From sequence record NC_073322.1: a stretch of DNA of 42,145 bases. One strand, given 5' to 3'. Below are positions 10,572 to 41,336 of this stretch, in pieces. This DNA comes from Escherichia phage vB_EcoS-Ro145c2YLVW. The position numbers and the translations under genes are program-made. Position 1 is the first letter of the stretch. Each line of letters begins with the position of its first letter. The notes beneath the pieces are model-generated. The model saw only the letters and a program-made list of their open reading frames with translations. It was not told the DNA's origin and searched no databases.

Positions 10572-10597
10572 AAATACCTCCTGTTTAAGTTAACTGA

Positions 10598-10626: not shown

Positions 10627-10692
10627 ACTATTTGTTTATGTATTCCAGTTATTCCGCTCAATTGTAAATGTTGGAATAAACTATTCGAATAG

Positions 10693-10721: not shown

Positions 10722-10728
10722 CCACCTG

Positions 10729-18485: not shown

Positions 18486-18956
18486 CTACTCATGGTTTTC
18501 ATGAAAACCGTATTTACTCTCGGCGGCTTTACGCGCGGCAACCGCTACATCAAAATCGTCGTAAAGCCCTAAATGCACTTGTTTGTAGTTAACTTTTATA
18601 AACGCGCGCCACTTACCCGCGGCTTTGTGGAAACTTACACCTGTAGCCCCGGATTTATTTATCTTTCTCATAGTTTTATTTTTACTGTCCCCTGTATTGT
18701 CGGTGGCGCGTAGATTTTCTATTCTATTGTCTAGCCTGTTATGGTTTATGTGGTCTATTTGAGTTTTCCTGTCTAAGTCGCATTTATTATAAAGACACCA
18801 TGCTATGCGGTGGACATACACTGTTTTACCACCCATACCGCAGCACAGATAGCCTCTTACACCAACCGTACCAACCTCAGCACCAGTAGATATCCTGGTA
18901 ACCTGCCCCGTCTCAGGGCAGTATTTAAATTGTTTTGAAACATCAAGATACTTCAT
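18486..18956 (-). CDS. HNH homing endonuclease with AP2-type domain (paralog)
   Basis: VYVHRIAW, IDHINHNRLDN and GATGVSF...W motifs; paralogous to 17710..18204. Confidence 0.8.
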   Translation of the reverse strand: MKYLDVSKQFKYCPETGQVTRISTGAEVGTVGVRGYLCCGMGGKTVYVHRIAWCLYNKCDLDRKTQIDHINHNRLDNRIENLRATDNTGDSKNKTMRKINKSGATGVSFHKAAGKWRAFIKVNYKQVHLGLYDDFDVAVAARKAAESKYGFHENHE

Positions 18957-24538: not shown

Positions 24539-24900
24539 ACATTAATTCTTATACTGGTCTTCCGTATGATTTTCGCCGCCGTAATTGCTGGCACCATGTG
24601 TGTAACGTTCGCGCGGACGCGGGGCTCCCCACGCCCGAGTTTAACGTCGCTTCGCCAACACAGATTAATGATGCCTTTGAAGAAGGCCATAAAGACACTA
24701 AAGGCCTCGTACACGTAGAAACTCCGCAAAACTTCGATGTCGTTCTGATGGCAACGCGACACAGAAACCGTGTAATCTGGCACGCTGGCGTATATTATGG
24801 TGGTATGGTCAGTCATTGCGAGCTAGCTAGTCGCCAGGTACGGTTAGACCGACTGGAAGACTTGCGCGAAACTTATGCGGAGATAGAATTTTGGCGCTGA
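24535..24900 (+). CDS. tail-tip protein with Cys/His peptidase-like motif (NlpC/P60-like, putative)
   Basis: NCWHHVCN ... H arrangement and position before the central tail-tip gene. Confidence 0.45.
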   Translation: MNINSYTGLPYDFRRRNCWHHVCNVRADAGLPTPEFNVASPTQINDAFEEGHKDTKGLVHVETPQNFDVVLMATRHRNRVIWHAGVYYGGMVSHCELASRQVRLDRLEDLRETYAEIEFWR

Positions 24901-25217
24901 TATTACACTACACCCGTAACGAAGACGGTACTTTCGACCGCAAACGGTACAACGTACCGCCGATGGAATACGTCGTTGCTAACATCCCTGACGGGGTGCC
25001 GGTACGTATTTACCGGGGCGAGATTGGCGAGGATACGGAAGTAACGGAAGATTTCGAAGCGCTGAAAGAAGACGACGTATTCCATATTATCGAAGGTGCT
25101 GGTGGCGGTGGCGGTGTTCTCGGAAAACTGCTTGACCCATTGGGTGTGCTTAAGTTTATCACTAAACTGATTTCCCCGTCGCAGACAACGCCTAAAACTA
25201 GTGTAGCTAACCAGTAA
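24891..25217 (+). CDS. tail assembly protein (lambda I-like position)
   Basis: Small protein with poly-Gly linker; C-terminal 17 codons repeated at N-terminus of next gene. Confidence 0.5.
   Translation: MALILHYTRNEDGTFDRKRYNVPPMEYVVANIPDGVPVRIYRGEIGEDTEVTEDFEALKEDDVFHIIEGAGGGGGVLGKLLDPLGVLKFITKLISPSQTTPKTSVANQ
25164..25214 (+). repeat. 51-bp direct repeat, copy 1
   Basis: AAACTGATTTCCCCGTCGCAGACAACGCCTAAAACTAGTGTAGCTAACCAG; 49/51 identical to 25278-25328. Confidence 0.8.
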
Positions 25218-25259
25218 TCCGGAGGGGGTTGTGTAGGGAAAGAGCGTAAACCTTGGGGG

Positions 25260-27560
25260 GTGCCGAAGTATTTCAAAAAACTGATTTCCCCGTCGCAGAA
25301 AACGCCTAAAACTAGTTTAGCTAACCAGCAGGCGGAGTCGCCAAACAACAACCTGACGGACCGAAACAATAAACCTCGCCCGTATGAGCGGTCGTATGAT
25401 ATTTGCGGCAGGGTACAGACTATCCCTAATGACCTCATGACTACCTATAAAATATTCGATGAATCCGGCCGAATTATCGAGTATGGATACTACGACGCCG
25501 GTCGAGGTTACCTGGATATCAAAGCAGAAGACATTACTGACGGCGATACTAAAGTACAGGAGATTACAGGTACATCTGTCGCGGTGTATGCGCCGTTTAC
25601 ATCGCCTAACAATACAAATACTCCTCAGCTTCTGGTGGGGGAACCTATCAATCAGAATCTTTATATAACTATCGCTTCTAATGAAGTAGACGGAGCCGTT
25701 CTTAAAGCCCGTAACGATATAAGGGTTAACCCTAGCGACACGGGCCGTGTGAGATATGACTCTGCTACAAAAATTGGATACCTGTATGATGGCACGGGGG
25801 ATTCTGGCTTCGCGGAAATATTATCTGTTGGCGATACCGCGTCGTTCAATAACTTTGACGTTCCGGACGTAACAAATACCAACGGCAACTTTCGTGTTCT
25901 TTATGTCGATAACTTCGAGCTGCGGGTCGACACCGGCGGCGCGTCTAACTGGGCTGCTTTAGGTTCAACCACCTATTCACTTTCCCCGAGAAGTGACACG
26001 TGGGTGGGCCCTGTGAATACGTATGAAAGAACATTAACCGACTGGACCACCTTAAACCGCCTGGAAGTTGAACGAGTAGTTGCTAACATTGCCGCCGCGA
26101 ATGGCATGTACAAGGACAACGGCAGTAAATTGCGCACCGCTGTAACTGTAGAGCTTCAATATCAGCTACTAGATGAATCCGGGGCACCGTACGGAAGCAT
26201 TTACTCGAAACAGGCCACTATATCCGGGCGGTCCGCAGATTACACCGGGGTCACCATTTACGCCGACCTGCCCGTGCGGTCGAAAGTCAGGGTACGCGCC
26301 CGGCGTGTTACCAACCTGGACCTCGATTTCGAGGGCACCGTGGTAGACGAGGTTTCCTACATCAACCTTTACGGGCAGGTCCGCGACACTACGCCGCATT
26401 ACGGCAACCGTACTACTGTACACTCTGCACGTAAGCCGACGCCGCGGGCCGCAGAGATTAAGCAGCCGCAGCTACGTATGGTCGCGACGGAGATGGTGTA
26501 CAAATACCTCGGCAACGGCGTATTTGACGCGGTTATGACACCTAATACCCAAGCCGTTCAGTCGTTAATACGCCTGGCGCGGGACCCAGTAGTAGGAAAC
26601 CTCAATCTCACCACGGCTAACATGGATAAGTTGTTGGCTACGCAAGCAGAGATTGAAAATTATTTCGGAAATGCTGAGGCTGGGCAGTTCTGCTACACAT
26701 TCGATGATTACAAAACGACTATGCAGGACATCATCAGCACAATAGCTGATGCTATTTTCTGCACGCCATATCGTAAAGGGCAAGACATATTACTGGATTT
26801 CGAGCGCCCTCGTATGGGGCCGGAGATGGTATTCACCCACCGCAGTAAAACAACGGCATCCGAGAGGTGGACTAGGACATTCAACGACGCTCAGGTATAC
26901 GATAGTCTTAAGTTCTCCTACATCGACCCAGATACCAACGTAAAAGAGACTATTAGCATTCCAGCCGAAGGTGGTGTTAATACCGAAACGTATGACTCCA
27001 AGGGTATACGTAATTATCGCCAGGCGTACTGGGCGGCGTACCGCCGCTACCAGAAAAACCTGTTGAAGAAGGTAACGGTATCATTCACGGCGACAGAAGA
27101 AGGGATTTTTGCAATGCCTGGGCGTGCGGTAAGTGTGGTAAAAGGTTCGCGTATGGCTCCACAAGACGGCTATGTAATCGCCGTTAACGGGCTTACGCTT
27201 ACTCTTTCTCGGCCGGTCGCGTTTACTCCTGGGGATGACCACTCACTGATTCTTAAGAAGCGAGACGGGGGAGTTCAAAGTGTTGCCGTTGTGCCTGGAA
27301 GCCACGACCGTGAAGTGGTTATGCTATCCGCGCCGCAGGAGGCAATTTACACGGGGAATAGCGCACTAAAAACTGAGTTTTCATTCGGCAACGAAGCAAG
27401 GCATAATGCTCAGATGATTCTTGTTTCTACAGTTGACCCCGGAGATGACAGAACAGTTAAGATTACCGGGATTAACTATGAAGCAGATTTCTATAAATAC
27501 GACGGCGTCGCGCCTTTCGGTCGCGGTTTCTCCGACGGATTCAGCAACGGTTTTAGTTAA
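25260..27560 (+). CDS. central tail fiber / tail tip protein (J-like, putative)
   Basis: 766-aa protein downstream of tail-tip assembly genes; GTG start after CTTGGGGGG. Confidence 0.65.
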   Translation: MPKYFKKLISPSQKTPKTSLANQQAESPNNNLTDRNNKPRPYERSYDICGRVQTIPNDLMTTYKIFDESGRIIEYGYYDAGRGYLDIKAEDITDGDTKVQEITGTSVAVYAPFTSPNNTNTPQLLVGEPINQNLYITIASNEVDGAVLKARNDIRVNPSDTGRVRYDSATKIGYLYDGTGDSGFAEILSVGDTASFNNFDVPDVTNTNGNFRVLYVDNFELRVDTGGASNWAALGSTTYSLSPRSDTWVGPVNTYERTLTDWTTLNRLEVERVVANIAAANGMYKDNGSKLRTAVTVELQYQLLDESGAPYGSIYSKQATISGRSADYTGVTIYADLPVRSKVRVRARRVTNLDLDFEGTVVDEVSYINLYGQVRDTTPHYGNRTTVHSARKPTPRAAEIKQPQLRMVATEMVYKYLGNGVFDAVMTPNTQAVQSLIRLARDPVVGNLNLTTANMDKLLATQAEIENYFGNAEAGQFCYTFDDYKTTMQDIISTIADAIFCTPYRKGQDILLDFERPRMGPEMVFTHRSKTTASERWTRTFNDAQVYDSLKFSYIDPDTNVKETISIPAEGGVNTETYDSKGIRNYRQAYWAAYRRYQKNLLKKVTVSFTATEEGIFAMPGRAVSVVKGSRMAPQDGYVIAVNGLTLTLSRPVAFTPGDDHSLILKKRDGGVQSVAVVPGSHDREVVMLSAPQEAIYTGNSALKTEFSFGNEARHNAQMILVSTVDPGDDRTVKITGINYEADFYKYDGVAPFGRGFSDGFSNGFS
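25278..25328 (+). repeat. 51-bp direct repeat, copy 2
   Basis: AAACTGATTTCCCCGTCGCAGAAAACGCCTAAAACTAGTTTAGCTAACCAG. Confidence 0.8.
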
Positions 27561-29829: not shown

Positions 29830-30017
29830 CATTCGAACTCCACCAAATCACCGTTAAAGAACTCGGCAACTATATAACCAGAATCGGGGTCATAGTCTGC
29901 TATACTTTCTGCTCCGCTTTCATCCACCACTCGGTACTCTATGCCGTTGTAGATGGTCTGGTATTCCTCGCCTTCTATAAAATCATCGATTGTGGAACTT
30001 ACGCAAAACAGTTTCAT
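29829..30017 (-). CDS. small acidic protein (62 aa)
   Basis: Track ORF, coupled to helicase gene. Confidence 0.45.
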   Translation of the reverse strand: MKLFCVSSTIDDFIEGEEYQTIYNGIEYRVVDESGAESIADYDPDSGYIVAEFFNGDLVEFE

Positions 30018-31438
30018 TTCTTACCTCGTCTCTTCATGTAATTAAGCAACTCTTCCTGTACAGATTTTTTCTCGTCCGTACGCGCGGCAACAACCTCGTC
30101 CAGCGTGTCCTTAGCAACGATGTGATAGAGGAACACCGGGCGCTCGTGGCCTGCCTGTTTCTGGCGTACAGGGCCTATACGCTCGACGACCTGCAAATAG
30201 TGCTCAAGGTTCCAGCCTTGCGAGATGAATGCCAGATGATGCCCGCCGTCCTGTAAATTCAAACCATGCCCGGCTGACGCAGGGTGTACGCATAAGATTT
30301 CTATTTCCCCGCGGTTCCACGCTTCCATCTGCTTATTGCCCTTAGCACCTTTTGCGAACGCCTGCGCCTGCGGGAATCGCTTAAGGATGCGCTCCAGTTC
30401 GTGCTTAAACTGATAGGCCACCAGTAACGGCGCCCCCTGTAACTCCTCAACAATTGACTCCAGTGCGTCCAGTTTTGTGTCGTGCACTTTCTCCCATTCT
30501 TTCGTCGCTTCGCCGTCTGGCCCCGACACATACACGGCACCGGAGGCAATTTGCAAGCACTTTGACGTCTTCGCCGCGGCGTTAGCCGCCTCAACTTCTC
30601 CGCTCTCCAGTTCCGCGAATAACTTCTCCTCCATATCTATGTACGCCTGACGTGCTTTCTTCGGCAGGTCGATTTCCACCGGTACGATAACAGGCGCTTC
30701 ACATCCGAACCACTCGGCGGCGTCAATCGTGAGACTAATGTCCTTCATCTTCTGGTGAATCTCATTATCCGCACCCGGGCGCGCATGATATTCACGGGCC
30801 ATAGCTGATTTGCCTTTCTGTACCGAGTTAAACCAGCGGTCGGTGAATGCCGTATATGAAGAACCAAGACGCTCGCCCGCGTCGATAAACCAGTTCTGCC
30901 CCCACAAGTCTTTGAGGCCGTTTGGTGATGGTGTGCCGGTGAGGTTAATGAATCGCTTGACCTTGCCGAACGCCACTTTACTAAGAGCCTTCGCGCGCTT
31001 GCTTCCGCCGGAACGGCTGCGGAACGATTTCAGCTTCGTGCTTTCATCGGCAACGATAACCGTAAAAGGCCAGTCGTCTTTGCCGTAGTAGTCAATCAGC
31101 CACTCGATAACTTCGTAGTTAGTGCACACCACGTTGGCGTCTGACTCCAGCGCCGCGATACGGCGCTTCTCTGAGCCAGTGGCATCGACGACGCGCAGAC
31201 ACGGGAAACCCCACTTAGTTTGTTCTGCGGGCCACGTACCAGACGCAACACGTAACGGGGCGAGGATTAACACGCGGTCCTCTTCCGTAAGCTGCCCGTT
31301 GCGGAACAGGCGGTTTAGAACCCACATCGTTGCGGAACTTTTGCCCGCGCCCATCGAGGCCCAAATATTACAGCGCGGATGCCGTAGCATGAACGAAGTC
31401 ATGAGTTTCTGGTACTCTCGCCTTTGAAACTTACTCAT
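30014..31438 (-). CDS. SNF2-family ATP-dependent helicase
   Basis: Walker A GAGKSSA, DEAD-like VIVADEST, helicase C-terminal block; start set to ATG 31438 (track gives GTG 31450). Confidence 0.75.
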   Translation of the reverse strand: MSKFQRREYQKLMTSFMLRHPRCNIWASMGAGKSSATMWVLNRLFRNGQLTEEDRVLILAPLRVASGTWPAEQTKWGFPCLRVVDATGSEKRRIAALESDANVVCTNYEVIEWLIDYYGKDDWPFTVIVADESTKLKSFRSRSGGSKRAKALSKVAFGKVKRFINLTGTPSPNGLKDLWGQNWFIDAGERLGSSYTAFTDRWFNSVQKGKSAMAREYHARPGADNEIHQKMKDISLTIDAAEWFGCEAPVIVPVEIDLPKKARQAYIDMEEKLFAELESGEVEAANAAAKTSKCLQIASGAVYVSGPDGEATKEWEKVHDTKLDALESIVEELQGAPLLVAYQFKHELERILKRFPQAQAFAKGAKGNKQMEAWNRGEIEILCVHPASAGHGLNLQDGGHHLAFISQGWNLEHYLQVVERIGPVRQKQAGHERPVFLYHIVAKDTLDEVVAARTDEKKSVQEELLNYMKRRGKK

Positions 31439-32780: not shown

Positions 32781-34958
32781 TCACTTAGCGTACCGGTACA
32801 TTTCGCTGCCTTCTGCTACAAGAGGGAATCCCTCAGCCCATTCAGGTAATTCGCACATCAATCGTTCGAGTTCAGCCACATTGTATTCAGGCGAATCTGG
32901 CGTCTCGCAGATAATTTCATCGTGTACATGAAGTACAATCGGGTAGCCGTTTGCTTCAACGTTAAGTAGCGCATTAGCCAGCAAGTCACGGCACAGTGCC
33001 TGGGTACAGTTTTCCACCAGTTTCCCGGAGTACGTGTACTGGAAGCCCCACTGACGAGTTAACTGGTTTTCACCTTGGTACTTGATGCGCACGTTAGTAG
33101 AAACTTTCCCGTCTTCGTCCGTCTCTTTCGATACACTTAAACCTACGCCAGGGTAGGACATTACGCGGCCTGACGGCAACGTCATGCGCAACCACCAACC
33201 AGCTACCTTGTTGCCGTTGTTATCTGTTTCTACGTTGCGTGAAAACTTAACGCCACGAGGACCAGCGGTGAACTCTTTCCCTGGATTACGTATTGCCGCC
33301 ATAGCTGCGTCTTCGATATCACGCCAGAAAGCTACAGTCTCAGGGTGCGACTCGCGCCACATGCGCTTGATAGCGTCACATGTACGCCAGACTTTCTTAT
33401 CCAGAATATATGATGGTCGGTCATCTTTTTCACCAGGACGCGGTGGCCGCTTGGCTTCCTGAATACGCGCCCACTCGTACCCACGTGCGGTAGCGGCCCA
33501 GATGTGGTCAGGGAAAGTACCGTCCATTGTTTTAGCCATATCAACCAGGTCAAGGCCGAGGTTCTTGGCGAACTGAACGAAAGCCCCTACGCCGCCAGCG
33601 TAGCCGAGTCCCAACTCGCAAGCTTTGCCTATCTGGCGAAGGTCTTTACGTTCTTTCTTAATGTAATCCGGTTCCAGGCCAAACATCTTGCCCGCCGTTA
33701 CGCAATAAATATCCAGCCCGGCCCGGAAAGTATCGAGCGCGGCTTCTTCGCCCGCCAGCCATGCCAGCCCGCGACCTTCAACGTTAGAGTAATCTGCAAC
33801 AACAAACTTGTGCCCTGCTTCCGGGATAATGCAGCTGCGCACCGTAGATGCCGTTAGCTTGGCTACATCAAACCGACGATGCGCACGTCCTTTCAGCAAC
33901 GCAGAAATCCCTTTATCCAGCTCATCGTCATGATAGTACCCGCGGGCCAGGTTCTGTGGCTGGAAGCCTTTACCGGCGAATCGTAGCGTACGTTTAGCCC
34001 CGCCGTACTGGATGCAACCGCGGCGGCGGTCGTCAGAAGAACGACCCAGCAATAACGGTGTGTATTTCGTTGACGCGGTGGACGCCGCTCCGAGGCGCAT
34101 TTCGACAATATCACGGGCATCGTCGGGTAAATCCTCGTCAGCCAGCAGGTCAAACAACGTTGCTTTTTGCGCGTTATGAATGCGGTTCGCAGGGGCCAGT
34201 TCCTGCAATGCCGGTAGAAAGTCTTTTCCGGTTAATGAACAGCCGAATTTACGTTGAGATTCCTCCTGCAACTCCCCCTTATGCCGTGTTATGGCTTCAA
34301 TAGCGGCTTCTGCCAGCGCAATATCAACCTTGAACCCGCGGTCGTTGATTAACTGGTCCAGTTCCAGTACGCGGTCCTCGAACTCAGAGTTGCCCCACGA
34401 CGGCATTTTTTGAAACACTTCACGCATCGAAGTGATATCACTAATAGCGTACTTGATGAATAACGCCCACTCCTCCGGGTGCGTCTCAGACGTATAGCGG
34501 CGTATTTTGTAATTCTTCGGGGTCGGCTTGGTGAATCTCTTTATTAACGCCTTACCGCGTTTGTCCTTGGCGTTCTCTGCAGATACTTCCAGCACTTCAC
34601 ACAAAACAGCCAATTTCCCCGGCAGCGCGTGGCGAAAAGCACAGGTCATTGTATCTATAACGCTGCTTACAGGTATGTCATAGCCCCAGCAGTTGCGGAT
34701 AACTAAGCGGTCAAACATATTGAAGTTATGACCTACAATCTTAATATCCCCTCTCATTGCCTTACGCAGGCCAACTTTCAGGTCGCGCGGCATATCGCTG
34801 CCGTCTGTGCAGTCCCAGCAACGCACCTCGCCGTCGTCGAACGCGTAGGTGCATATCAGAATTTCTGTAGATGGGTGTTCGGCGTAGGCATAACTGCCGA
34901 CAACCGTTATGTCTAATTCACAAAAAGTTTCTGTATCAAGATAAAGTAATTCGTTCAT
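32781..34958 (-). CDS. DNA polymerase, family A, with 3'-5' exonuclease domain
   Basis: Exo I LYLDTETF; pol motif A VVADYSNVEGR, motif B-like RQIGKACELGLGYAGG, motif C VHDEI. Confidence 0.9.
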   Translation of the reverse strand: MNELLYLDTETFCELDITVVGSYAYAEHPSTEILICTYAFDDGEVRCWDCTDGSDMPRDLKVGLRKAMRGDIKIVGHNFNMFDRLVIRNCWGYDIPVSSVIDTMTCAFRHALPGKLAVLCEVLEVSAENAKDKRGKALIKRFTKPTPKNYKIRRYTSETHPEEWALFIKYAISDITSMREVFQKMPSWGNSEFEDRVLELDQLINDRGFKVDIALAEAAIEAITRHKGELQEESQRKFGCSLTGKDFLPALQELAPANRIHNAQKATLFDLLADEDLPDDARDIVEMRLGAASTASTKYTPLLLGRSSDDRRRGCIQYGGAKRTLRFAGKGFQPQNLARGYYHDDELDKGISALLKGRAHRRFDVAKLTASTVRSCIIPEAGHKFVVADYSNVEGRGLAWLAGEEAALDTFRAGLDIYCVTAGKMFGLEPDYIKKERKDLRQIGKACELGLGYAGGVGAFVQFAKNLGLDLVDMAKTMDGTFPDHIWAATARGYEWARIQEAKRPPRPGEKDDRPSYILDKKVWRTCDAIKRMWRESHPETVAFWRDIEDAAMAAIRNPGKEFTAGPRGVKFSRNVETDNNGNKVAGWWLRMTLPSGRVMSYPGVGLSVSKETDEDGKVSTNVRIKYQGENQLTRQWGFQYTYSGKLVENCTQALCRDLLANALLNVEANGYPIVLHVHDEIICETPDSPEYNVAELERLMCELPEWAEGFPLVAEGSEMYRYAK

Positions 34959-35016: not shown

Positions 35017-35646
35017 TTAACCACGGCGACGACGTTCTCGGCGCGGTGCTTCATCTTCTTCGTCGTCTTCAAGGTCATTGACGCTCGCAGCAACTTTAGA
35101 GCCTCCAAACGCTTTACCTTCGCCGACGTATTTAATCGCCAGCAGGTTAACGCCGAGGACTTTGTATTTCTGGCTGAACCAGATTTCAACGCTTACGTTA
35201 GCAACGCAGCCGCTGTAAACCTGTTCGCCTTCAATCTGTTCACCGTCTACGTTGAAGTCCTGCTCTACCTGAGTCTCACCTTTTTTAGAGGTTACAATCA
35301 GCGGTTGTTTCTGTGCCTTCGCTTTGAAGTAGAAACCTTCCGGGAAGTCTTCAAAAGGATTATCACGCTCGGCAATGTCTTTAATCGCGCATTTATCCAT
35401 GTGCTTGCCTTCGCCGTAGTTTGACTTCATCCACTTCTCGGCAGCGGCGGCACCAAGTGCTTCTTCTACAACCGCATAAACGGTGTCGTACATTTCGTCG
35501 ATTTGCGCATGGTCAGACGGCAGGATGATAGTCGCGCTGTACTGGCCTTTAGTGATTGAGCCATCATCGTTTTCACGGTCTTTTTCGCGTTCGAATACGT
35601 TAACCCATGCAGTGTTTACTTTACGCAGATTTAATTTCATTCCCAT
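35017..35646 (-). CDS. single-stranded DNA-binding protein (putative)
   Basis: 209 aa, acidic stretch DLEDDEEDE near C-terminus, within replication module. Confidence 0.55.
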   Translation of the reverse strand: MGMKLNLRKVNTAWVNVFEREKDRENDDGSITKGQYSATIILPSDHAQIDEMYDTVYAVVEEALGAAAAEKWMKSNYGEGKHMDKCAIKDIAERDNPFEDFPEGFYFKAKAQKQPLIVTSKKGETQVEQDFNVDGEQIEGEQVYSGCVANVSVEIWFSQKYKVLGVNLLAIKYVGEGKAFGGSKVAASVNDLEDDEEDEAPRRERRRRG

Positions 35647-35732: not shown

Positions 35733-35888
35733 TTATTTAAACGTTTCTTTTGTCATACGGATAATTTTCGCCGATTCGTCCCTAATTATCATGCTGAATA
35801 CCTGGTATATGACTTTGCTCCTGCCTAGCTTCGCTCCGTTTCGATGCTGTTGTATGTAGCTTTTATGCAATTCTTGAATCGTACTCAT
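35733..35888 (-). CDS. hypothetical small protein (51 aa)
   Basis: ATG overlaps exonuclease stop (ATGA); track ORF 35733..35918 trimmed. Confidence 0.35.
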   Translation of the reverse strand: MSTIQELHKSYIQQHRNGAKLGRSKVIYQVFSMIIRDESAKIIRMTKETFK

Positions 35889-37147
35889 TCCAAATCCCCC
35901 TCTGTTACTTGATTCCACTCAGGCCGTTTATCGTCTGCCGTTGCAACGCATGGTGCTCCTGGCTTACGAGTAATGAAGTCTTTCAGTTCTTCTTCCGGCA
36001 CAACTTTAACAGCTTCGGTTGGCGTCATGAGCACTTGCTTCATTAGCGCGATGCCGTATTTGCTTGCCACTTTCTCCGCGTCTTTCCACGCGCGATTACC
36101 CGGACGACCTTCTACCAGCTTGTAACCCGGCACTTTCTTGCCAGAATGCAAAGCGGCAGCCATAGCTTTCTCAACCTTGTCGATGTGCTGGCGCAACAAC
36201 GGCAACTTCTCATACTCGGCGACGAGTTGCTCAGGTGTCAGTTCCAGTGCAAAATCGTCCTCCAGTTCTTCCGCCAGCACCGCGTTAACGGTTTTTGTAC
36301 GCGCTGCGCACTGTTCTGAGAACCGACACCACTGGCAACCATCGACCGACGGCTTGAAGTCCGACGCTTTCAGGTTCTTCTTTCCACGGAAATAGGCATC
36401 AAGGGCCCGCAGCGCTCGTTTCCGTGCGAACTTAGCGAACAGTTCCAGACCTTCAACCGAGATGTCCCACTCCGACGCGCCACCAGCATACGGCTGGAAG
36501 ATGACCAGGCGAACTACTGTGATGTTATAACGTCTCTTGAGTCGGCGATAAACACCGAGAGCGTAAAGCATAAGCTGCTTGTTTTCTTTCGCTTCAACAC
36601 GATGCCGTCCTGTTTTCAGGTCGCCTATAATGAGCATGTGCCCATCGGTGTTAGACAGCTCCTGAACGGCAACGAGGTCAGCAGTTCCGAACGTCTCAAC
36701 GCCTTCATAGCCCGGATGCAATACCTCAGTAAGATTGACGCGCATTTCCAGCTTGGCGTAAGTGGCAACGTCGATAATCGCTTTGCAGTAGTCTGTGTAC
36801 TTGCGCACCTGTTCAATCATGTCAGCCGTAATCAGTACCGCACCTTTCATCGGGCTGATTAGTGCCTTAATCTGACCTTTACCCTCATCCAGCACGTAAG
36901 CACCGACTTCACGCTCCAACGGCAGCGCAGTGCCTTTGATGTACTGGTTTAGATGTACCTCAGCTATTGTGTGCATAGCTGTGCCTAATACCGCAGATTT
37001 ACCTGACGTGTTAGGGATATCTTTTTCACAGGCCAGCGATGCGGCGCAGCTTAACCACTTTTTGGCACCTGACGGCGACAGTAAGGCGTGCACATCGTTA
37101 TTGCCGCCGCGTTCTTTTAAAATCATTCCGTACCTCCCACTGGTCAA
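35885..37147 (-). CDS. PD-(D/E)xK exonuclease, RecB/Cas4-like with Cys cluster
   Basis: GDLKTG...EAKENKQLMLYAL nuclease core and C-terminal CQWCRFSEQC cysteines. Confidence 0.7.
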   Translation of the reverse strand: MTSGRYGMILKERGGNNDVHALLSPSGAKKWLSCAASLACEKDIPNTSGKSAVLGTAMHTIAEVHLNQYIKGTALPLEREVGAYVLDEGKGQIKALISPMKGAVLITADMIEQVRKYTDYCKAIIDVATYAKLEMRVNLTEVLHPGYEGVETFGTADLVAVQELSNTDGHMLIIGDLKTGRHRVEAKENKQLMLYALGVYRRLKRRYNITVVRLVIFQPYAGGASEWDISVEGLELFAKFARKRALRALDAYFRGKKNLKASDFKPSVDGCQWCRFSEQCAARTKTVNAVLAEELEDDFALELTPEQLVAEYEKLPLLRQHIDKVEKAMAAALHSGKKVPGYKLVEGRPGNRAWKDAEKVASKYGIALMKQVLMTPTEAVKVVPEEELKDFITRKPGAPCVATADDKRPEWNQVTEGDLE

Positions 37148-37394
37148 TTAAATGCCGCGTCTGGTGCTGGCAGTGCATAGCCCACCCATACATCGACTCG
37201 AAGACATAAAAGTCAGGTTTGGCGAAGGTCGTTCGCTTAATCTGCGACACGCGGCGACCTATATCTTTAGGGCGCGGTACTTTGCCTAAGTACGCCATCT
37301 CTTCCATCCGGTGCGCACCTGACGGCGCACGCAACAGCCACAACGCCTCTGTGTTATCCCGCCTGTCGATGGCGCGGTAGAGTTGGTAAATCAT
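37098..37394 (-). CDS. hypothetical protein
   Basis: Track ORF overlapping exonuclease start. Confidence 0.4.
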   Translation of the reverse strand: MIYQLYRAIDRRDNTEALWLLRAPSGAHRMEEMAYLGKVPRPKDIGRRVSQIKRTTFAKPDFYVFESMYGWAMHCQHQTRHLIDQWEVRNDFKRTRRQ

Positions 37395-37437
37395 AATTCC
37401 GAACCTCAGTTAAAGCGGCCCGAAGGCCGCAGGATAG

Positions 37438-37938
37438 TTATTCTTCTTCGAAATATTTGTTCTTGATTGCCGTCAGGCGTTCCAGATATTCAGCCAAGTC
37501 TTCGTCTTTAATCGCCGCAATCTTCATCTTCTTACCTGTGAACTCTTCCAGCAGTTCATCGGAATCGTCGCACGCGGCATCGCTCGGACCTTCATTAATT
37601 GCATCGTCGATGGCCTGAATCTGGTCACGCAGAGACTGGTAATCGACTTCTTCCTTCCCTTCTTCCGGCTCTGGCTCTGGCTGCTCTACTTTAGCTTTAC
37701 GCGGCTTGCGTTTTGGCTTCTCTTCTTCTGCTGATTTAGTGTCGACGATGTCTTCACCTTCGACCGGGATTTCTTTTGTTGCTTCTTTTGCGCACTCGTC
37801 TACCGCTTCTTTGGTATACATTACCGTCTCTACTTCTAGTGGCGCGGCAACCCGAACAACTTGTTTCGCGCTGTTCGCAGCAATCAGTTCATGTGCAACT
37901 ACGAAACGTTCCAGTAATTTTAAGAATTGGTCTAACAT
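37438..37938 (-). CDS. highly acidic protein, first gene downstream of class B promoter
   Basis: Asp/Glu-rich (EPEPEEGKEE, DDSDELLEE); GAGAGGAGAGAAACAA leader before ATG. Confidence 0.5.
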   Translation of the reverse strand: MLDQFLKLLERFVVAHELIAANSAKQVVRVAAPLEVETVMYTKEAVDECAKEATKEIPVEGEDIVDTKSAEEEKPKRKPRKAKVEQPEPEPEEGKEEVDYQSLRDQIQAIDDAINEGPSDAACDDSDELLEEFTGKKMKIAAIKDEDLAEYLERLTAIKNKYFEEE

Positions 37939-37969
37939 TTGTTTCTCTCCTCTCGTTTGGTATGGGCTA

Positions 37970-37999
37970 ACTATAATAGCTGACTATTCATGATGTCAA
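37970..37999 (-). promoter_or_regulatory. sigma70-like promoter, class B (TTGACA-18 nt-TATAGT)
   Basis: Consensus -35, conserved spacer core; divergent from XRE gene. Confidence 0.5.
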
Positions 38000-38063
38000 T
38001 GGGCTTTTCTAAAATAATTAATATGGTACTATTCACATATCAACTGACTAAGGAGTGATTAAC

Positions 38064-38279
38064 ATGCAACCATCTGAACTAGGCATCCGTGTAGAACAGC
38101 GCCGTAAAGAACTCGGCATCTCCCAGCGCCGTCTGGCTGTCCTGACGGGAGTTTCTCAGGGCGCAATTAATCAGCTTGCACTCGGAGTAACTCAGGACGT
38201 CCGCCCGGCAACGCTGTTTAAACTGGCGGAAGTGCTGGAAGTAGACGCCAAGTGGCTGGCGTTAGGTGAAGGGGCTTAA
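38064..38279 (+). CDS. XRE-family HTH transcriptional regulator
   Basis: ELGISQRRLAVLTGVSQGAINQL helix-turn-helix; AAGGAG SD before ATG 38064. Confidence 0.7.
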   Translation: MQPSELGIRVEQRRKELGISQRRLAVLTGVSQGAINQLALGVTQDVRPATLFKLAEVLEVDAKWLALGEGA

Positions 38280-38296
38280 TGCCCCTTTCTTTTTAC
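38269..38296 (+). terminator. rho-independent terminator
   Basis: AAGGGGC-TTAAT-GCCCCTT hairpin followed by TCTTTTT. Confidence 0.55.
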
Positions 38297-40537
38297 CTAT
38301 TCCAAATCTTCCTCTGTAACTTTCAGCATCTCATTCGGTTCGTATATTGTCTTCGGCCTTAATCTGTCACCTATCTTTTCGGGTATCCGGTATGTGCCGG
38401 GGGCAACTTCACCGTTAACATCACACCCGAGCATCAACTCACCGTCTTTCAGCATCTTCTCAAGATGGTGGTTGGTGATGGCGTGGTCCCCCGAGTTCGC
38501 CACTATCTGCCGTTGGGTAAAACCTCGTCCGGTGTCGTCGGACTGTTGCAGGTCTTCCAGCGCGGCGAGTATTGATTCCTTACGCCCTTCATCCTTCCCG
38601 CGTTTTACAGCATTCTTTACGTTTTCTTTACCTTCCTTTGTCAGCCCTTCTTCCCGCTCTTTCTCCTCGTCAGTTTTGAATGGCTCGAAGCCCCACGGCA
38701 TCAACACAAGCGCCTTGTGTGGTTCCGGCAGGTCGAGGTTTACGATTGTGCCGTATTCCTCCGTGCTGCCCAGGAACTCCACCGCGCGGTACTCTTTCGG
38801 CGGTGGCGCTTCACGGAACTGTACCGACTCCAGCACCATACCAACCGTCTTCTGTTGAGGCCCGTGCTTAAATTTAGAGTGGTATACGTTTATCTGACGG
38901 TCGGTTGCGCGTTCAATTGTCAGCTCCACGTCGACACCCGCATACAGCGCCCCACTGCCACGGGCTTTCTTTCCACCCTTCGGGGTATGGTGAACAACGC
39001 CCACCGCAGCTTTGGTTGCGTCGCGTACTTCTTTCAGGATGGCAATGACTTTACCCATGCCGATTGCCGTCGATGAACTGTTCTCGTCGAACTTATCAAT
39101 CGTCAGGGCCAGGGTCTGGTTGAGGGTATCGAACGCGACCATCCCAATTGGCTCGTCACCCGCGGTTTCGCGCATCAACTTAATCAGGCTTTTCAGTTTT
39201 CCGACTTCACCCATGTCGATGACATGTACATAATCTTTACCTTCCTCGCCATATTTAGCCGCGAGTGCGTCGATGCGTGTGCGTGTAGCAGCACCACCCT
39301 CACCGTCGATATAGAAATGGTGGCAACGCTGGGTATCTGCCCCTGCAAACCGGTATCCGGCGGCGCTAAGGTACATCATCCCCAGCGTATAGAACGATTT
39401 GTACGTGCCAGATTCCCCGACGATATCCCAGATACAATCCGACGGCATGTACCCTTCAACGACGAAATCAGCCTTTACCGGTTCCGGTAACTCGTCCTCC
39501 TCTGGATCCTCGTCGTCTTCCAGGTCGTCCAGGCTGCATGAAACATATTCACGTGCACCCCATCCGATGGCCTCTGCAACTTCACTGAACGGCAGCCCGG
39601 TCGCATCGCACGCGTATTTCCACACATCTTTCGGTGGCCTGCCTTCTGTCGCCCCAATGTCGGTGTCGTGAATCATGGTTACGTTCGGCGCTTCGTACCC
39701 TTCACGTGGGAAACACAGCAGGAAGTCGTCCGGGCGTGGCGTCGGGTCGCTGTAGTTTTCTGCGTGTTCTGGTGTGGCAGGCATCTTAAGGCCGCGAGGC
39801 GTCATGATGCCGCCGTACTCAAACGCCAGCGATTCAAACGCATCTGTAAACGCGGTGCGCAGTTCTTCCGGAATCTGGTAGTCAGATGCGCTGCTTACCT
39901 CGTAATCCGGGATGCCTTCCAGTAACTCGTCAGGGTCAATCAGGTCATTGCGGCGCGCCCAGATAACGGTAGAGCCGACCGGCGGCAGGTACATAGGCTG
40001 AGACAGAGTGAACCCGCTGCGGTCGGCACCCATGCCTTTGAAGAAGTGCTCCAGCAATCCGTGACGAACGCGGATGATGTCACCACCTTCAACCGGACGC
40101 CCCAGCGGCATGACGACGCGAAAGCGCGGTGACTCATCGGTATGTGATGCCGTAGTGTAAAGGCACATAGCCTGACGGCTGCGCTTAACCAGGCACACCA
40201 CTTCCTGATACTCTTCCGGCGTTGCGCTGTCGAAGTCCAGGTACGCCAGCGACGATTTACTTACAGACGCGTCACAGCGATAAAAGAAGCCTTTGCGCGC
40301 TTGCTTAAAGTCACCGGTTTCCGGGTCTTTTACGGTGCTGTGCGTAGCGTCGCACGCGGCAGTAACATAGCCAGGTGCTGTCTTCGGGTTAATTCCGTCG
40401 CGAACGGAATCGAGTGGACGGATTAACTCTTTCAGGTCGTCCAGTGTTGCCGTGTGTGTTGTTCTGACGTTTATATCCTTTTTCTCCGCCCGCGCGTTGC
40501 GACGAGACCACGAGTAGGATAAGATTGCATCGGACAT
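38297..40537 (-). CDS. DNA primase/helicase (primase-like N-terminal region plus RecA-like P-loop ATPase)
   Basis: Walker A GESGTYKS in central domain; 746 aa; canonical position in replication module. Confidence 0.65.
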   Translation of the reverse strand: MSDAILSYSWSRRNARAEKKDINVRTTHTATLDDLKELIRPLDSVRDGINPKTAPGYVTAACDATHSTVKDPETGDFKQARKGFFYRCDASVSKSSLAYLDFDSATPEEYQEVVCLVKRSRQAMCLYTTASHTDESPRFRVVMPLGRPVEGGDIIRVRHGLLEHFFKGMGADRSGFTLSQPMYLPPVGSTVIWARRNDLIDPDELLEGIPDYEVSSASDYQIPEELRTAFTDAFESLAFEYGGIMTPRGLKMPATPEHAENYSDPTPRPDDFLLCFPREGYEAPNVTMIHDTDIGATEGRPPKDVWKYACDATGLPFSEVAEAIGWGAREYVSCSLDDLEDDEDPEEDELPEPVKADFVVEGYMPSDCIWDIVGESGTYKSFYTLGMMYLSAAGYRFAGADTQRCHHFYIDGEGGAATRTRIDALAAKYGEEGKDYVHVIDMGEVGKLKSLIKLMRETAGDEPIGMVAFDTLNQTLALTIDKFDENSSSTAIGMGKVIAILKEVRDATKAAVGVVHHTPKGGKKARGSGALYAGVDVELTIERATDRQINVYHSKFKHGPQQKTVGMVLESVQFREAPPPKEYRAVEFLGSTEEYGTIVNLDLPEPHKALVLMPWGFEPFKTDEEKEREEGLTKEGKENVKNAVKRGKDEGRKESILAALEDLQQSDDTGRGFTQRQIVANSGDHAITNHHLEKMLKDGELMLGCDVNGEVAPGTYRIPEKIGDRLRPKTIYEPNEMLKVTEEDLE

Positions 40538-40595
40538 GTTGTGTTTCCTTCAGCAAGTAATTTGGCCTCGGCGTTCACCGCGTCGGGGCTTTCTT

Positions 40596-40829
40596 TTATT
40601 CCAGGTCTTCTAAAGTAGCGGTCATTCCGCGAACTTCTGCAACAGCGCTATATTTCCCGCCAACGTTTTTTACGACACCGGATTTAACCAGCACGCGTAA
40701 CGACGCTTCAATAATGGCGGAACTATAGTACTTAAAATAACTGCGGCGCAAGTCAAGAACACTACACGACCCTTTTTTACGTGTAAGCGAAACTACCGCC
40801 GTAAATACTCGTGACTGGAACTCTGTCAT
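40596..40829 (-). CDS. hypothetical protein ending in TLEDLE
   Basis: Track ORF; shares C-terminal DLE tail with primase and exonuclease. Confidence 0.45.
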   Translation of the reverse strand: MTEFQSRVFTAVVSLTRKKGSCSVLDLRRSYFKYYSSAIIEASLRVLVKSGVVKNVGGKYSAVAEVRGMTATLEDLE

Positions 40830-40996
40830 TTCACATTCTCCTTAATCCACGCTTCCACTTTATCCGGGTCAAACGTACCTGGCTGACGGCGGCCCATAAT
40901 GCGGATACAGCAATCAGGGAACTTCCCACTCTTTAACCAGTTATTCAGCGTTCGACGAGTAACCCCGATACGCTCGGCTACCTCATTCTGCGTCAT
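40826..40996 (-). CDS. small HTH DNA-binding protein
   Basis: NEVAERIGVTRRTLNNWLK helix-turn-helix; start set to ATG 40996 with GAGGG SD (track gives TTG 41029). Confidence 0.55.
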   Translation of the reverse strand: MTQNEVAERIGVTRRTLNNWLKSGKFPDCCIRIMGRRQPGTFDPDKVEAWIKENVK

Positions 40997-41028
40997 TCTC
41001 AAACCCTCATTATCAGTTAACGAAACCA

Positions 41029-41057
41029 AGTATACATTGCGAATAATGGGAAATCAA
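41029..41057 (-). promoter_or_regulatory. sigma70-like promoter (TTGATT-17 nt-TATACT) for replication operon
   Basis: Hexamers at correct spacing about 30 nt upstream of ATG 40996. Confidence 0.4.
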
Positions 41058-41336
41058 ACATAATCTCACCTATTGACATTACGGAAATCTTCGTTTAAGG
41101 TGCTTCTATATCTTAGTTACTTTGATTCCTGTTCACCTTGTAAAACCCGCCGAAAACGAGCGCACAACGCGAAGTGTTAGGCGGCAGTTTACTGAACATT
41201 CGAATTATCGTAACTTCCCTTCCTTAGTATCTCAGTTGCCCTGGGCAAGCTCTATTCTCATCGGCAGCATATCTCTTAAGTAACTGATTTTTTTAATGTG
41301 CTGTAGATTCGCAACCGTAAAAATGTAACGATTATT

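What the first reader, a model, noticed from the sequence alone, without database searches (positions are those of the whole stretch)
35885..40829. Shared C-terminal DLE tail on three replication-module proteins
The RecB/Cas4-like exonuclease ends in VTEGDLE, the primase/helicase in VTEEDLE and the 77-aa protein at 40596-40829 in TATLEDLE. Acidic C-terminal tails are docking motifs in known replisomes (for example SSB tails and the T7 gp4 and gp2.5 tails binding the polymerase). An identical terminal tripeptide on three otherwise unrelated proteins suggests a common binding pocket on a hub protein such as the polymerase or SSB-like protein.
Basis: partly seen in the sequence, partly recalled or inferred. 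Interest (0 to 1): 0.55.

Follow-up and report, generated by a model that had tools for sequence, protein, structure and literature searches.

The report
Shared acidic-Leu docking tail on replication proteins
Several DNA-replication proteins of this E. coli phage carry the same short acidic "…E-E-D-L-E" peptide on floppy ends or linkers; the peptide is conserved and changes in step across distant phage relatives, so it is probably a shared handle for docking onto one partner, as phage T7 does with its polymerase, though that partner has not been identified.

Summary
The window is a Kagunavirus genome, 100% identical to Escherichia phage vB_EcoS-Ro145clw over the region. Exactly 3 of 67 proteins end in DLE: the Cas4-like DUF2800 exonuclease (VTEGDLE), the primase-helicase (VTEEDLE) and a 77-aa winged-helix protein (ATLEDLE). 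Column-shuffle P is 0.03 for the triple and 0.001 for the 6/7 match.

The tails are kept through synonymous codon changes, different stop codons and different downstream contexts. They co-vary in other genera: HK578 has ATDEDLKN and ATDDDLKD, and eiAU has DDDLVD and NSDLED.

The real motif is acidic-acidic-D-L plus 1-3 residues, not "DLE-COOH". It also occurs internally in the gp2.5-like SSB, just after the OB fold, and in the disordered primase-helicase linker, in all six lineages examined. AlphaFold2 places the gp38 and primase-helicase copies in low-confidence, non-globular segments (pLDDT about 53 or less).

Across 44 lineages of the DUF2800-SSB-PolA module, tails match within a genome more than between genomes (Exo-primase P<5e-5; Exo-SSB P=0.005; controls not significant).

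Best reading: a shared short linear docking motif analogous to the T7 gp4 and gp2.5 acidic tails. The receptor is unknown; candidates are PolA, the helicase core and the SSB groove. This is a new variant of a known kind.

The parts
35885..37126 (-). DUF2800 / PD-(D/E)XK (Cas4/RecB-like) exonuclease, 413 aa
   Evidence: Pfam PF10926 (residues 13-402, E=1e-67) and PF12705. Four Cys are invariant (C27, C264, C267, C273) in the family alignment A1. The Pfam domain ends at residue 402, so the tail lies outside it.
35888..35908 (-). Exonuclease C-terminal tail VTEGDLE (acidic-DL motif copy 1)
   Evidence: The consensus in 120 close relatives is V[TS]EEDLE. It is conserved and co-varies in distant genera.
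38297..40537 (-). Primase-helicase, 746 aa: N-terminal primase domain, RepA-like hexameric-helicase core, long helix, C-terminal winged helix
   Evidence: PHROG 3228 'replicative helicase-primase' and Pfam AAA_25 at residues 352-522. AF2 model mean pLDDT is 85. The helicase core resembles RSF1010 RepA (1NLF/1G8Y, TM 0.65-0.68).
38300..38320 (-). Primase-helicase C-terminal tail VTEEDLE (motif copy 2), at the end of a low-confidence tail (pLDDT <50 for residues 729-740, block mean ~53 for 741-746)
   Evidence: An acidic-DL tail is present in most (about 12-13) of the ~16 close-subfamily 50%-identity representatives that reach the C-terminus, but in only 1 of the ~125 more distant AAA_25 relatives.
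39488..39541 (-). Primase-helicase inter-domain linker SCSLDDLEDDEDPEEDEL (internal motif copy 3)
   Evidence: a C-x-[DE]-[DEA]-D-L-x-[DN] motif lies at the same place in 6 lineages (VCTDEDLEDEP, VCTDADLDNEP, VCQDEDLMDAP and others). AF2 pLDDT is <50 over most of residues 327-351 (327-334, 341-346, 349-351).
35017..35646 (-). T7 gp2.5-type ssDNA-binding/annealing protein (DUF2815 / Enc34 ORF6 family), 209 aa
   Evidence: Pfam PF10991 (E=5e-16) and PHROG 112. The family has a solved structure and function (PMC5686142).
35050..35085 (-). SSB post-OB-fold segment SVNDLEDDEEDE (internal motif copy 4), followed by the Arg-rich end APRRERRRRG (35020-35049)
   Evidence: [TS]-[DE]-[DE]-D-L-x-DDD follows the AFGG end of the OB fold in all 6 DL-clade lineages. 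The basic or polyampholyte extension is found only in this clade among 88 loci.
40596..40829 (-). gp38, 77-aa winged-helix protein encoded just upstream of the primase-helicase
   Evidence: AF2 gives a winged helix for residues 1-62 with pLDDT >90. Foldseek hits are generic winged-helix domains such as LexA-N, MotA and RPA32. It belongs to PHROG 5169 (unknown function) and homologs were found only in Guernseyvirinae-like sequences.
40599..40634 (-). gp38 disordered tail VRGMTATLEDLE (motif copy 5)
   Evidence: pLDDT is <50 for residues 66-77. E74, D75 and L76 are invariant and E77 nearly invariant in 18 homologs down to 71% identity.
32781..34958 (-). Family A DNA polymerase, 725 aa: candidate receptor (inferred only)
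   Evidence: Pfam DNA_pol_A. The C-terminus is never acidic in 67 loci (fraction with net charge of 3 or more is 0.00). It is the receptor in the T7 precedent (PMC12593628, PMC12339929).

Best explanation
The three DLE tails are copies of one short linear motif: two or three acidic residues, then Asp-Leu, then one to three variable residues, usually preceded by Thr, Ser or Ala. The motif sits on disordered ends or linkers of the phage's replication and recombination proteins. There are five copies in this genome: the Cas4-like exonuclease C-terminus, the primase-helicase C-terminus, the primase-helicase inter-domain linker, the gp2.5-type SSB just after its OB fold, and the tail of a small winged-helix protein.

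I infer that all copies bind the same surface on one partner. That partner is most likely phage-encoded, and the family A DNA polymerase is the leading candidate by analogy with T7. In T7 the acidic C-terminal tails of the gp4 helicase-primase and the gp2.5 SSB dock on basic patches of the gp5 polymerase. Sharing one handle would let the helicase-primase, SSB, exonuclease and a DNA-binding accessory protein be recruited to, or exchanged at, the same site. This would couple fork progression, SSB displacement and recombination-dependent restart.

Shown here: the existence of the motif, its conservation at protein level, its co-variation, its disordered context and its lineage specificity. Inferred: that it binds anything, and what it binds.
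For: 1. Presence and statistics: 3/67 C-termini share DLE, and two 7-mers match at 6/7, P~0.001. [DE][DEG]DL occurs 6 times in the proteome against 1.6 expected, P=0.003.
2. Selection acts on the protein, not the DNA. In relatives the motif is kept with GAG/GAA, GAT/GAC and TTG/TTA/CTG/CTT variation, all three stop codons, and downstream contexts that include an overlapping ATG, a terminator or a promoter-like intergenic region.
3. Deep conservation with co-variation on two unrelated proteins (exonuclease / primase-helicase):
   - Kagunavirus VTEEDLE / VTEEDLE
   - Jerseyvirus VTEDDLE / TTEGDLE
   - L011 VSDSDLE / AADEDLE
   - L091 VSDDDLSN / AEYDDLAD
   - Dhillonvirus ATDEDLKN / ATDDDLKD
   - Eiauvirus KDDDLVD / ATNSDLED
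4. The primase-helicase subfamily keeps the tail in most (about 12-13) of ~16 representatives at 50% clustering. It is essentially absent (1 of ~125) from more distant homologs.
5. Internal copies in the SSB and in the helicase linker are conserved in all six lineages.
6. The gp38 and primase-helicase copies lie in segments predicted disordered, and the exonuclease copy lies outside the Pfam domain: gp38 residues 66-77 and primase-helicase residues 327-351 (mostly) and 729-740 have pLDDT <50, with ~53 over 741-746. The exonuclease tail starts after the end of the Pfam domain at residue 402.
7. The phenomenon is general and lineage-specific. In 44 lineages of the DUF2800-SSB-PolA module, C-termini are more alike within a genome than between genomes: Exo-PrimHel z=4.3, P<5e-5; Exo-SSB z=2.6, P=0.005. 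Pairs involving PolA, VRR-NUC or the SNF2 helicase show nothing. In the Chi-like phage Siskin, five replication proteins end in ..D[DE]EV or ..DDEE.
8. Precedent: DUF2815 is structurally a T7 gp2.5-type SSB with an unstructured acidic tail (PMC5686142). T7 gp4 and gp2.5 tails bind gp5 basic patches (PMC12593628; PMC12339929).
Against: - No interaction was tested.
- The T7 tails depend on a C-terminal aromatic residue with a free carboxylate. Here the hydrophobic residue is Leu, it is not terminal, and two copies are internal, so the recognition mode must differ.
- The polymerase is too divergent from T7 gp5 to map the basic patches. phmmer against the PDB finds only the motif A region of Taq and Klenow-type enzymes.
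- In the DL clade the SSB ends in an Arg-rich block instead of the motif, which the simple T7 picture does not predict.
- The six DL-clade lineages are phylogenetically nested, so the co-variation rests on few independent events.
- Acidic C-termini are common in this module (59-69% of Exo and SSB tails have net charge of 3 or more), so part of the similarity is compositional.
Confidence: 0.6

Rival explanations
1. The receptor is the primase-helicase itself. The linker copy of the motif, about 20 residues N-terminal of the RecA-like core, would be an oligomerisation or regulatory peptide that docks on the neighbouring helicase subunit. The analogies are the Rad51/RadA FxxA motif and the DnaB and gp4 linkers. 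The C-terminal tails of the helicase, exonuclease, SSB and gp38 would then mimic it, as BRC repeats mimic FxxA. That would make the helicase ring the hub.
For: - The linker motif is conserved in six lineages at a fixed distance from the Walker A strand.
- The core is RepA/Rad51-like.
- gp38 is encoded immediately upstream of the helicase and has the same winged-helix plus tail architecture as the helicase C-terminus.
- By the T7 precedent the gp2.5 tail is also implicated in binding the primase-helicase (PMC5686142).
Against: - The positional analogy is the only evidence.
- The AF2 monomer does not dock either copy.
- Primase-helicases with DL tails also occur on contigs of other phage types where no second tail-bearing protein was seen, although those contigs are short.
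Confidence: 0.2
2. The receptor is the DNA-binding groove of the gp2.5-type SSB. The tails would be DNA mimics that compete with ssDNA and with the SSB's own acidic segment, handing SSB-coated ssDNA to the exonuclease or helicase.
For: - In the Enc34 ORF6 crystal the acidic tail lies in the beta-sheet groove of a neighbouring molecule. For T7 gp2.5, the tail and ssDNA compete for one surface (PMC5686142 and its reference 14).
- In most lineages of the module the exonuclease tail resembles the SSB tail, for example L030 where both end in AESLI.
- An exonuclease plus an annealing SSB is a classic two-component recombination pair.
Against: It does not by itself explain why the helicase linker and gp38 carry the motif, or why the DL-clade SSB added a basic extension. 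The hypothesis was not tested.
Confidence: 0.2
3. There is no common partner. Each acidic segment would be an intramolecular, DNA-mimicking autoinhibitory tail of a DNA-binding protein, and the similarity would reflect convergent composition.
For: - All bearers bind DNA: a nuclease, a helicase with a winged helix, an SSB and a winged-helix protein.
- Acidic tails are frequent in the module.
- Removing the Enc34 ORF6 tail changes DNA specificity.
Against: - Composition alone does not give a fixed D-L with matched flanks and matched numbers of trailing residues on unrelated proteins within each lineage.
- The within-genome excess of similarity is absent for the control proteins.
- AF2 does not fold the tails back onto their own domains.
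Confidence: 0.12
4. The motif targets a host factor. This could be mimicry of the enterobacterial SSB C-terminus (DFDDDIPF) to borrow host SSB-interacting proteins, or a signal for a host protease or chaperone.
For: - The DDDL core resembles DDDI of the host SSB tip. APSE-like exonuclease and SSB tails contain DFDD[VI] (the host sequence is quoted from memory).
- All DL-clade phages infect Enterobacterales.
Against: - The Pro-Phe-COOH that defines SSB-Ct recognition is absent, and two copies are internal.
- Chi-like phages of the same hosts use a different tail (..DEDEV), which argues for a co-evolving phage-encoded receptor.
- The tail ends in a charged residue, unlike the ClpXP and Tsp C-terminal degrons I know of (established knowledge).
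Confidence: 0.1
5. The shared tail is chance, or a nucleotide-level element such as a ribosome-binding site for the next gene, a terminator context or a recombination linker at gene borders.
For: - In this genome the exonuclease tail codons GAGGGGGAT..GAATGA contain a Shine-Dalgarno-like run and overlap the ATG of the next gene.
- Terminal Glu is very common (21/67).
- The exonuclease and helicase tails are also alike at DNA level in this genome.
Against: - Relatives keep the peptide with different codons, different stop codons, and with no overlapping downstream gene.
- gp38 uses different codons (GAC CTG) in this genome.
- The motif is conserved at 31-47% protein identity.
- Permutation tests give P of 0.001 to <5e-5.
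Confidence: 0.03

Closest known systems
Bacteriophage T7 replisome: acidic C-terminal tails of the gp4 helicase-primase and the gp2.5 SSB docking on basic patches of gp5 DNA polymerase
   Same: - Disordered acidic tails occur on the helicase-primase and on a gp2.5-fold SSB of the same replisome.
- The tails resemble each other.
- The polymerase is family A.
- The SSB family here (DUF2815 / Enc34 ORF6) is a structural homolog of gp2.5.
   Different: - The T7 tails end in an essential aromatic residue (..DTDF). Here the hydrophobic residue is Leu, followed by 1-3 residues.
- The motif is also internal, in the SSB and in the helicase linker.
- Additional bearers exist: a Cas4-like exonuclease and a small winged-helix protein.
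- The helicase is RepA-like and is fused to a different primase.
- The SSB of this clade ends in an Arg-rich block.
- Binding has not been shown.
Bacterial SSB C-terminal tip (SSB-Ct, DFDDDIPF) and its interactome
   Same: An acidic run followed by a hydrophobic residue on a disordered tail serves as a universal handle in DNA metabolism. The DDDL core resembles DDDI.
   Different: - The topology is reversed: many proteins carry the peptide and presumably one protein reads it, rather than one SSB tail read by many partners.
- There is no Pro-Phe-COOH.
- The peptide is phage-lineage-specific.
Sliding-clamp binding motifs (bacterial QL[SD]LF, T4 gp45-binding C-terminal peptides, PIP boxes)
   Same: The logic is the same: one short peptide, often C-terminal, is shared by several otherwise unrelated replication proteins that compete for one pocket on a hub.
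   Different: - No clamp is encoded in the window.
- The motif is acidic with a single Leu, not Gln plus paired hydrophobic residues.
- No sequence match to the clamp-binding consensus.
duf2800-gp2.5-polA module of phages (Enc34, Chi-like, APSE, Staphylococcus and Streptococcus phages)
   Same: The window carries the described module with the same gene order: exonuclease, SSB, PolA.
   Different: The papers found describe the gene module and the acidic tail of the SSB. None of the papers I found mentions tails shared between the exonuclease, the primase-helicase and other proteins.

Membership tests
T7-type acidic C-terminal docking tails (gp4/gp2.5 to gp5) | Tail is disordered and strongly acidic | tested here: met
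   pLDDT is <50 for gp38 residues 66-77 and primase-helicase residues 729-740, and about 53 over residues 741-746. The exonuclease tail lies beyond the Pfam domain end at residue 402. The sequences are VTEGDLE, VTEEDLE and ATLEDLE.
T7-type acidic C-terminal docking tails (gp4/gp2.5 to gp5) | Carried by both the helicase-primase and a gp2.5-fold SSB of the same phage | tested here: inconclusive
   The helicase-primase carries it at its C-terminus. The SSB is gp2.5-type (PF10991) but carries the motif internally (SVNDLEDDEEDE), followed by APRRERRRRG.
T7-type acidic C-terminal docking tails (gp4/gp2.5 to gp5) | C-terminal aromatic residue (Phe) with a free carboxylate is essential | tested here: not met
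   The tails end in Glu, Asp, Asn or Ala after Leu, and there is no aromatic residue in the last 7 positions. The Phe requirement is taken from titles cited in PMC12339929.
T7-type acidic C-terminal docking tails (gp4/gp2.5 to gp5) | Tail binds basic patches on the family A polymerase | not testable with these tools
   No multimer prediction or binding assay is available. PolA is too divergent from T7 gp5 to map the patches.
Bacterial SSB-Ct motif | Acidic run ending in (I/L)-P-F-COOH on an SSB | tested here: not met
   There is no Pro-Phe. The motif sits on non-SSB proteins and at internal positions.
Beta-clamp binding motif | QL[SD]LF or QxxL(x)F consensus | tested here: not met
   The tail sequences have no Gln and only one hydrophobic residue. 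No clamp gene appears among the 67 annotated genes.
C-terminal degrons (ssrA-like LAA, ClpXP C-motifs) | Non-polar or basic C-terminal residues | tested here: not met
   The termini are acidic. The consensus degrons are quoted from established knowledge.
DUF2800 Cas4/RecB-like exonuclease (for the first protein) | PD-(D/E)XK core plus four-Cys cluster | tested here: met
   PF10926 (E=1e-67) and PF12705. Invariant residues include D150, D169, K171, Q184, Y188 and C27/C264/C267/C273.
T7 gp2.5-type SSB (DUF2815 / Enc34 ORF6) | Match to the family profile | tested here: met
   PF10991 at 59 bits against a cut-off of 26, and PHROG 112 at E=4e-42. The fold itself was not predicted here.

The most novel reading that the evidence does not exclude
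The acidic-DL peptide is a replisome-wide recognition code. Five copies on four proteins form a multivalent network around one phage-encoded receptor (the polymerase or the helicase ring). Through the same site it physically couples a Cas4-like recombination exonuclease and an origin- or DNA-binding winged-helix protein to the fork. The unusual acidic/Arg-rich SSB extension of this clade acts as a built-in competitor or as a condensate-forming scaffold. The same principle, with a different lineage-specific peptide, operates throughout the very widespread DUF2800-gp2.5-PolA phage module, for example ..DEDEV on five proteins in Chi-like phages.
Probability: 0.25. Interest if true: 0.7.

Novelty: new variant of a known kind. 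Interest (0 to 1): 0.55.

Why it matters
The DUF2800-gp2.5-PolA replication and recombination module occurs in well over a thousand sequenced phages of Gram-negative and Gram-positive bacteria (1504 phage records match the exonuclease). How its proteins assemble is unknown.

A shared, lineage-specific docking peptide would give a direct experimental handle:
- peptide pull-downs to find the hub;
- point mutants to uncouple the exonuclease, SSB and helicase from it;
- tail swaps to test specificity between phages.

It would extend the T7 electrostatic-tail paradigm beyond helicase and SSB to a recombination nuclease and a small DNA-binding protein. It could also explain module-level incompatibility when phages recombine.

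DUF2800 nucleases and phage SSBs are reported triggers of retron defence systems (bioRxiv 10.64898/2026.07.14.737667). Knowing their interaction surfaces may therefore also matter for defence sensing.

Tried and rejected
1. DNA-level explanation (Shine-Dalgarno/ATGA overlap at the exonuclease stop, a terminator after the helicase, boundary repeats). Rejected, because relatives keep the peptide with other codons, stops and contexts.
2. The search for homologous proteins with the exonuclease returned only relatives at 94% identity or more. These were useful for tail counts but not for depth. Depth came from tblastn on phage genomes, IMG/VR loci and the 50%-cluster library.
3. Homology between gp38 and the primase-helicase C-terminal module. 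BLASTP found nothing, and forced global hhalign gave probability 3.6%. The architecture is the same, but common descent is not shown.
4. Mapping the T7 gp5 basic patches onto this PolA. This was not possible, because only the motif A region aligns to solved family A polymerases and T7 gp5 is not among the hits.
5. Looking for self-docking of the tails in AF2 monomers. None was seen.
6. Genomic contexts of seven more primase-helicase representatives. One 44-kb contig (L091) confirmed tail sharing with its exonuclease. L094 holds only the N-terminal fragment of an exonuclease. The other contigs were 3-10 kb, lacked the module, and showed no second tail bearer.
7. Pfam on the large unknown neighbours of those contigs gave no hits.
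8. Clamp-binding, SSB-Ct and degron readings were considered and rejected on sequence grounds.

Full report
**What the window is.** Over 35800-41100 the window is 100% identical to Escherichia phage vB_EcoS-Ro145clw (MG852086.2; Guernseyvirinae, Kagunavirus). 447 phage records share this region at 60% identity or more. The annotated record lists 67 proteins. In the region of the finding, window coordinate = record coordinate + 12043.

The finding lies in a leftward early operon that encodes:
- an HTH protein (40826-40996);
- a 77-aa protein, here called gp38 (40596-40829);
- a primase-helicase (38297-40537);
- three small proteins;
- a DUF2800/PD-(D/E)XK Cas4-like exonuclease (35885-37126);
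- a 51-aa protein;
- a T7 gp2.5-type SSB of the DUF2815/Enc34 ORF6 family (35017-35646);
- a family A DNA polymerase (32781-34958);
- further downstream, a VRR-NUC nuclease and an SNF2-like helicase.

The three proteins end in VTEGDLE, VTEEDLE and ATLEDLE, and no other annotated protein ends in DLE.
- Glu is the last residue of 21 of 67 proteins, so the tripeptide alone is only moderately surprising. The probability that any tripeptide is shared by three C-termini is 0.03 by column shuffle and 0.003 by bulk composition.
- The 6/7 identity of the exonuclease and helicase 7-mers has P of about 0.001.
- In all-frame ORF lists, a loose acidic-Leu C-terminal pattern selects only these three ORFs in this genome and in two Jerseyvirus genomes.

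**Selection acts on the peptide, not the DNA.** In this genome the exonuclease tail codons overlap a Shine-Dalgarno-like run and the ATG of the next gene. The helicase tail is followed by a terminator hairpin. In relatives the same peptides are encoded with synonymous differences (GAG/GAA, GAT/GAC, TTG/TTA/CTG/CTT, ACA/ACG/ACC/ACT), with all three stop codons, and with unrelated downstream sequence. Among 120 close exonuclease clusters, 98 read V[TS]EEDLE, identical to the helicase tail, and all but a few keep an acidic-DL(E) end. Of the 35 gp38 homologs found, 32 keep [ED][DE]LE.

**Deep conservation with co-variation.** I fetched whole genomes and metagenomic loci at 31-47% protein identity. 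The exonuclease and the primase-helicase keep matching ends in every lineage:

| Lineage | Exonuclease | Primase-helicase |
|---|---|---|
| Jerseyvirus | VTEDDLE(A) | TTEGDLE |
| IMG/VR locus L011 | VSDSDLE | AADEDLE |
| Contig L091 | VSDDDLSN | AEYDDLAD |
| Dhillonvirus HK578 and relatives | ATDEDLKN or ATDEDLSNE | ATDDDLKD |
| Eiauvirus eiAU | KDDDLVD | ATNSDLED |

The conserved unit is therefore [TSA]-acidic-acidic-D-L plus one to three variable residues, not a terminal DLE. Among 50%-identity cluster representatives of the primase-helicase, most (about 12-13) of the ~16 close-subfamily members that reach the C-terminus end this way. Only 1 of about 125 more distant AAA_25 relatives does. 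In the exonuclease family the tail follows the invariant D-x-R-P and an aromatic residue, and lies outside the Pfam domain.

- In all six DL-clade lineages the SSB carries the motif directly after the AFGG end of its OB fold: SVNDLEDDEEDE here, and TATDDDLSDDDD, SCSDEDLGDDDE, TATDDDLGDDDD and ASDDDLGDDDD elsewhere. An Arg-rich or alternating acidic/basic extension follows it, and that extension is unique to this clade among 88 loci.
- The primase-helicase carries another copy in the linker between its primase and helicase domains: SCSLDDLEDDED here, and VCTDEDLEDEP, VCTDADLDNEP and VCQDEDLMDAP elsewhere.
- [DE][DEG]DL is enriched in the proteome: 6 observed against 1.6 expected, P=0.003.

**Structural context.**
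- AlphaFold2 predicts gp38 as a winged helix (residues 1-62, pLDDT >90) with a disordered tail (residues 66-77, pLDDT <50). Its Foldseek matches are generic winged-helix domains.
- The primase-helicase model (mean pLDDT 85) has a primase domain, a disordered linker (residues 327-351), a RepA/RecA-like helicase core, a long helix, a C-terminal winged helix (residues 675-717) and a disordered tail (residues 729-746).
- gp38 thus has the same architecture as the C-terminal module of the helicase, but no significant sequence similarity to it.
- Neither model docks its motif onto its own domains.

**A wider, lineage-specific phenomenon.** The duf2800-gp2.5-polA module is known and widespread (PMC8093625; 1504 phage records). 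Other lineages use other shared tails.
- In the Chi-like phage Siskin, the primase (..DPFDDEDEV), a 134-aa protein (..NSEEDDV), the exonuclease (..WDDEDDDEV), the SSB (..DEDWEDEV) and the SNF2 helicase (..VWDDEE) all match.
- In APSE-like elements the exonuclease (..NDFDDVSDDALAADLI) and the SSB (..DDFDDISEGADASDLV) match. In L030 both end in AESLI.
- I took one representative per 60%-identity exonuclease cluster (44 lineages) and compared end-anchored similarity of C-termini within genomes against shuffled pairings. Exo-primase/helicase gave z=4.3, P<5e-5. Exo-SSB gave z=2.6, P=0.005. No pair involving PolA, VRR-NUC or the SNF2 helicase departed from the shuffles.
- PolA never has an acidic end, and the SNF2 helicase end is basic.

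**Mechanism.** The best-supported reading is a short linear docking motif shared by several replisome and recombination proteins.

The nearest characterised system is T7. There the acidic C-terminal tails of gp4 and gp2.5 bind basic patches of the gp5 polymerase and control loading, processivity, polymerase exchange and SSB displacement (PMC12593628; PMC12339929). The SSB family here is the structural homolog of gp2.5, and its acidic tail lies in a neighbour's DNA-binding groove in the crystal (PMC5686142).

By analogy the receptor is most likely the family A polymerase. Two alternatives are nearly as good:
- The helicase core: its own linker motif sits where Rad51/RadA carry their polymerisation peptide.
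- The SSB groove.

Shown: the existence of the motif, its conservation, its co-variation, its disordered context and its lineage specificity. Inferred: binding, and the identity of the receptor.

It is not a member of the T7 tail class in the strict sense. The defining terminal aromatic residue is absent, and two copies are internal. It also does not fit SSB-Ct, clamp-binding or degron consensus sequences.

**Novelty.** None of the papers I found that mention DUF2800 or DUF2815 describe tails shared between the exonuclease, the primase-helicase and other proteins. The principle is established, so I rate this a new variant of a known kind. Its interest is moderate, mainly because it makes the architecture of a very common but unstudied phage replisome directly testable.

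**Limits.**
- No interaction test was possible.
- The DL clade supplies only a handful of independent evolutionary events.
- Role assignment in the 80 IMG/VR loci was automatic (phmmer, E<1e-5), so some primase-helicase and VRR-NUC calls may be wrong. That adds noise rather than signal to the permutation test.

Noticed in passing
window 37438-37938 (-), 166-aa protein (gp35): This unknown-function protein (PHROG 3127) has its own conserved aromatic-acidic C-terminus: ..KYFEEE here, ..FFEFEEE in eiAU, ..YFELED in HK578, and ..YYELED and ..YYDIED in L011 and L091. It also has a D[ED]D[LV] about 20 residues upstream in most lineages. This may be a second tail class in the same module.
   Followed up: partly
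window 35020-35085 (-), C-terminus of the SSB: The gp2.5-type SSB ends in an acidic run followed by APRRERRRRG. In eiAU, HK578, L011 and L091 the extension is a 50-70-aa alternating acidic/Arg-Lys polyampholyte. Among 88 loci only the clade whose primase-helicase carries the DL tail has this. Its function is unknown.
   Followed up: partly
window 30014-31438 (-), SNF2-like helicase C-terminus: The C-terminus is basic and conserved (..LLNYMKRRGKK; ..LLEAMKKRG in distant lineages) across most of 65 loci. Mean net charge of the last 10 residues is -2.3 on an acidic-minus-basic scale. It could be a counterpart to the acidic tails.
   Followed up: no
window 40596-40829 vs 38300-38512 (-): gp38 (winged helix plus disordered DL tail) mirrors the C-terminal winged helix plus tail of the primase-helicase encoded immediately downstream. 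It may be a free-standing paralog or competitor, but the sequence similarity is not significant.
   Followed up: yes
window ~24891-27560 (+), large tail gene: Relative to MG852086.2 the window is 114 bases longer (42145 vs 42031). The 851-aa tail protein of that record is split here into a 108-aa ORF and a 766-aa ORF. The translation shows a near-repeat (..LISPSQ.. twice) with an in-frame stop. The window probably derives from the sister isolate Ro145c2YLVW, whose contig is 42145 bp.
   Followed up: partly
whole window (67 annotated proteins): There is a strong bias in the last residue: 21 proteins end in Glu and 16 in Lys. This inflates chance matches of C-terminal peptides and was taken into account.
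   Followed up: yes
L007 (Salmonella phage Siskin, Chivirus) 1002-10802: Five replication-module proteins (primase, a 134-aa hypothetical protein, the DUF2800 exonuclease, the DUF2815 SSB and the SNF2 helicase) all end in ..D[DE]EV or ..DDEE acidic tails preceded by Trp or Phe. This is the clearest example of the same principle with a different peptide.
   Followed up: partly
window 17710-18204 and 18486-18956 (-): Two neighbouring small proteins end in the same unusual peptide, ..GFHENHGK and ..GFHENHE. They are probably paralogs. They are unrelated to the DL motif.
   Followed up: no
window 33920-34150 (-), PolA residues ~270-285: PolA contains DLLADEDLPDDAR, which is conserved in Guernseyvirinae, L011 and L091 but not in HK578 or eiAU. 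It is probably part of a folded helix rather than a motif copy. This was not examined structurally.
   Followed up: no
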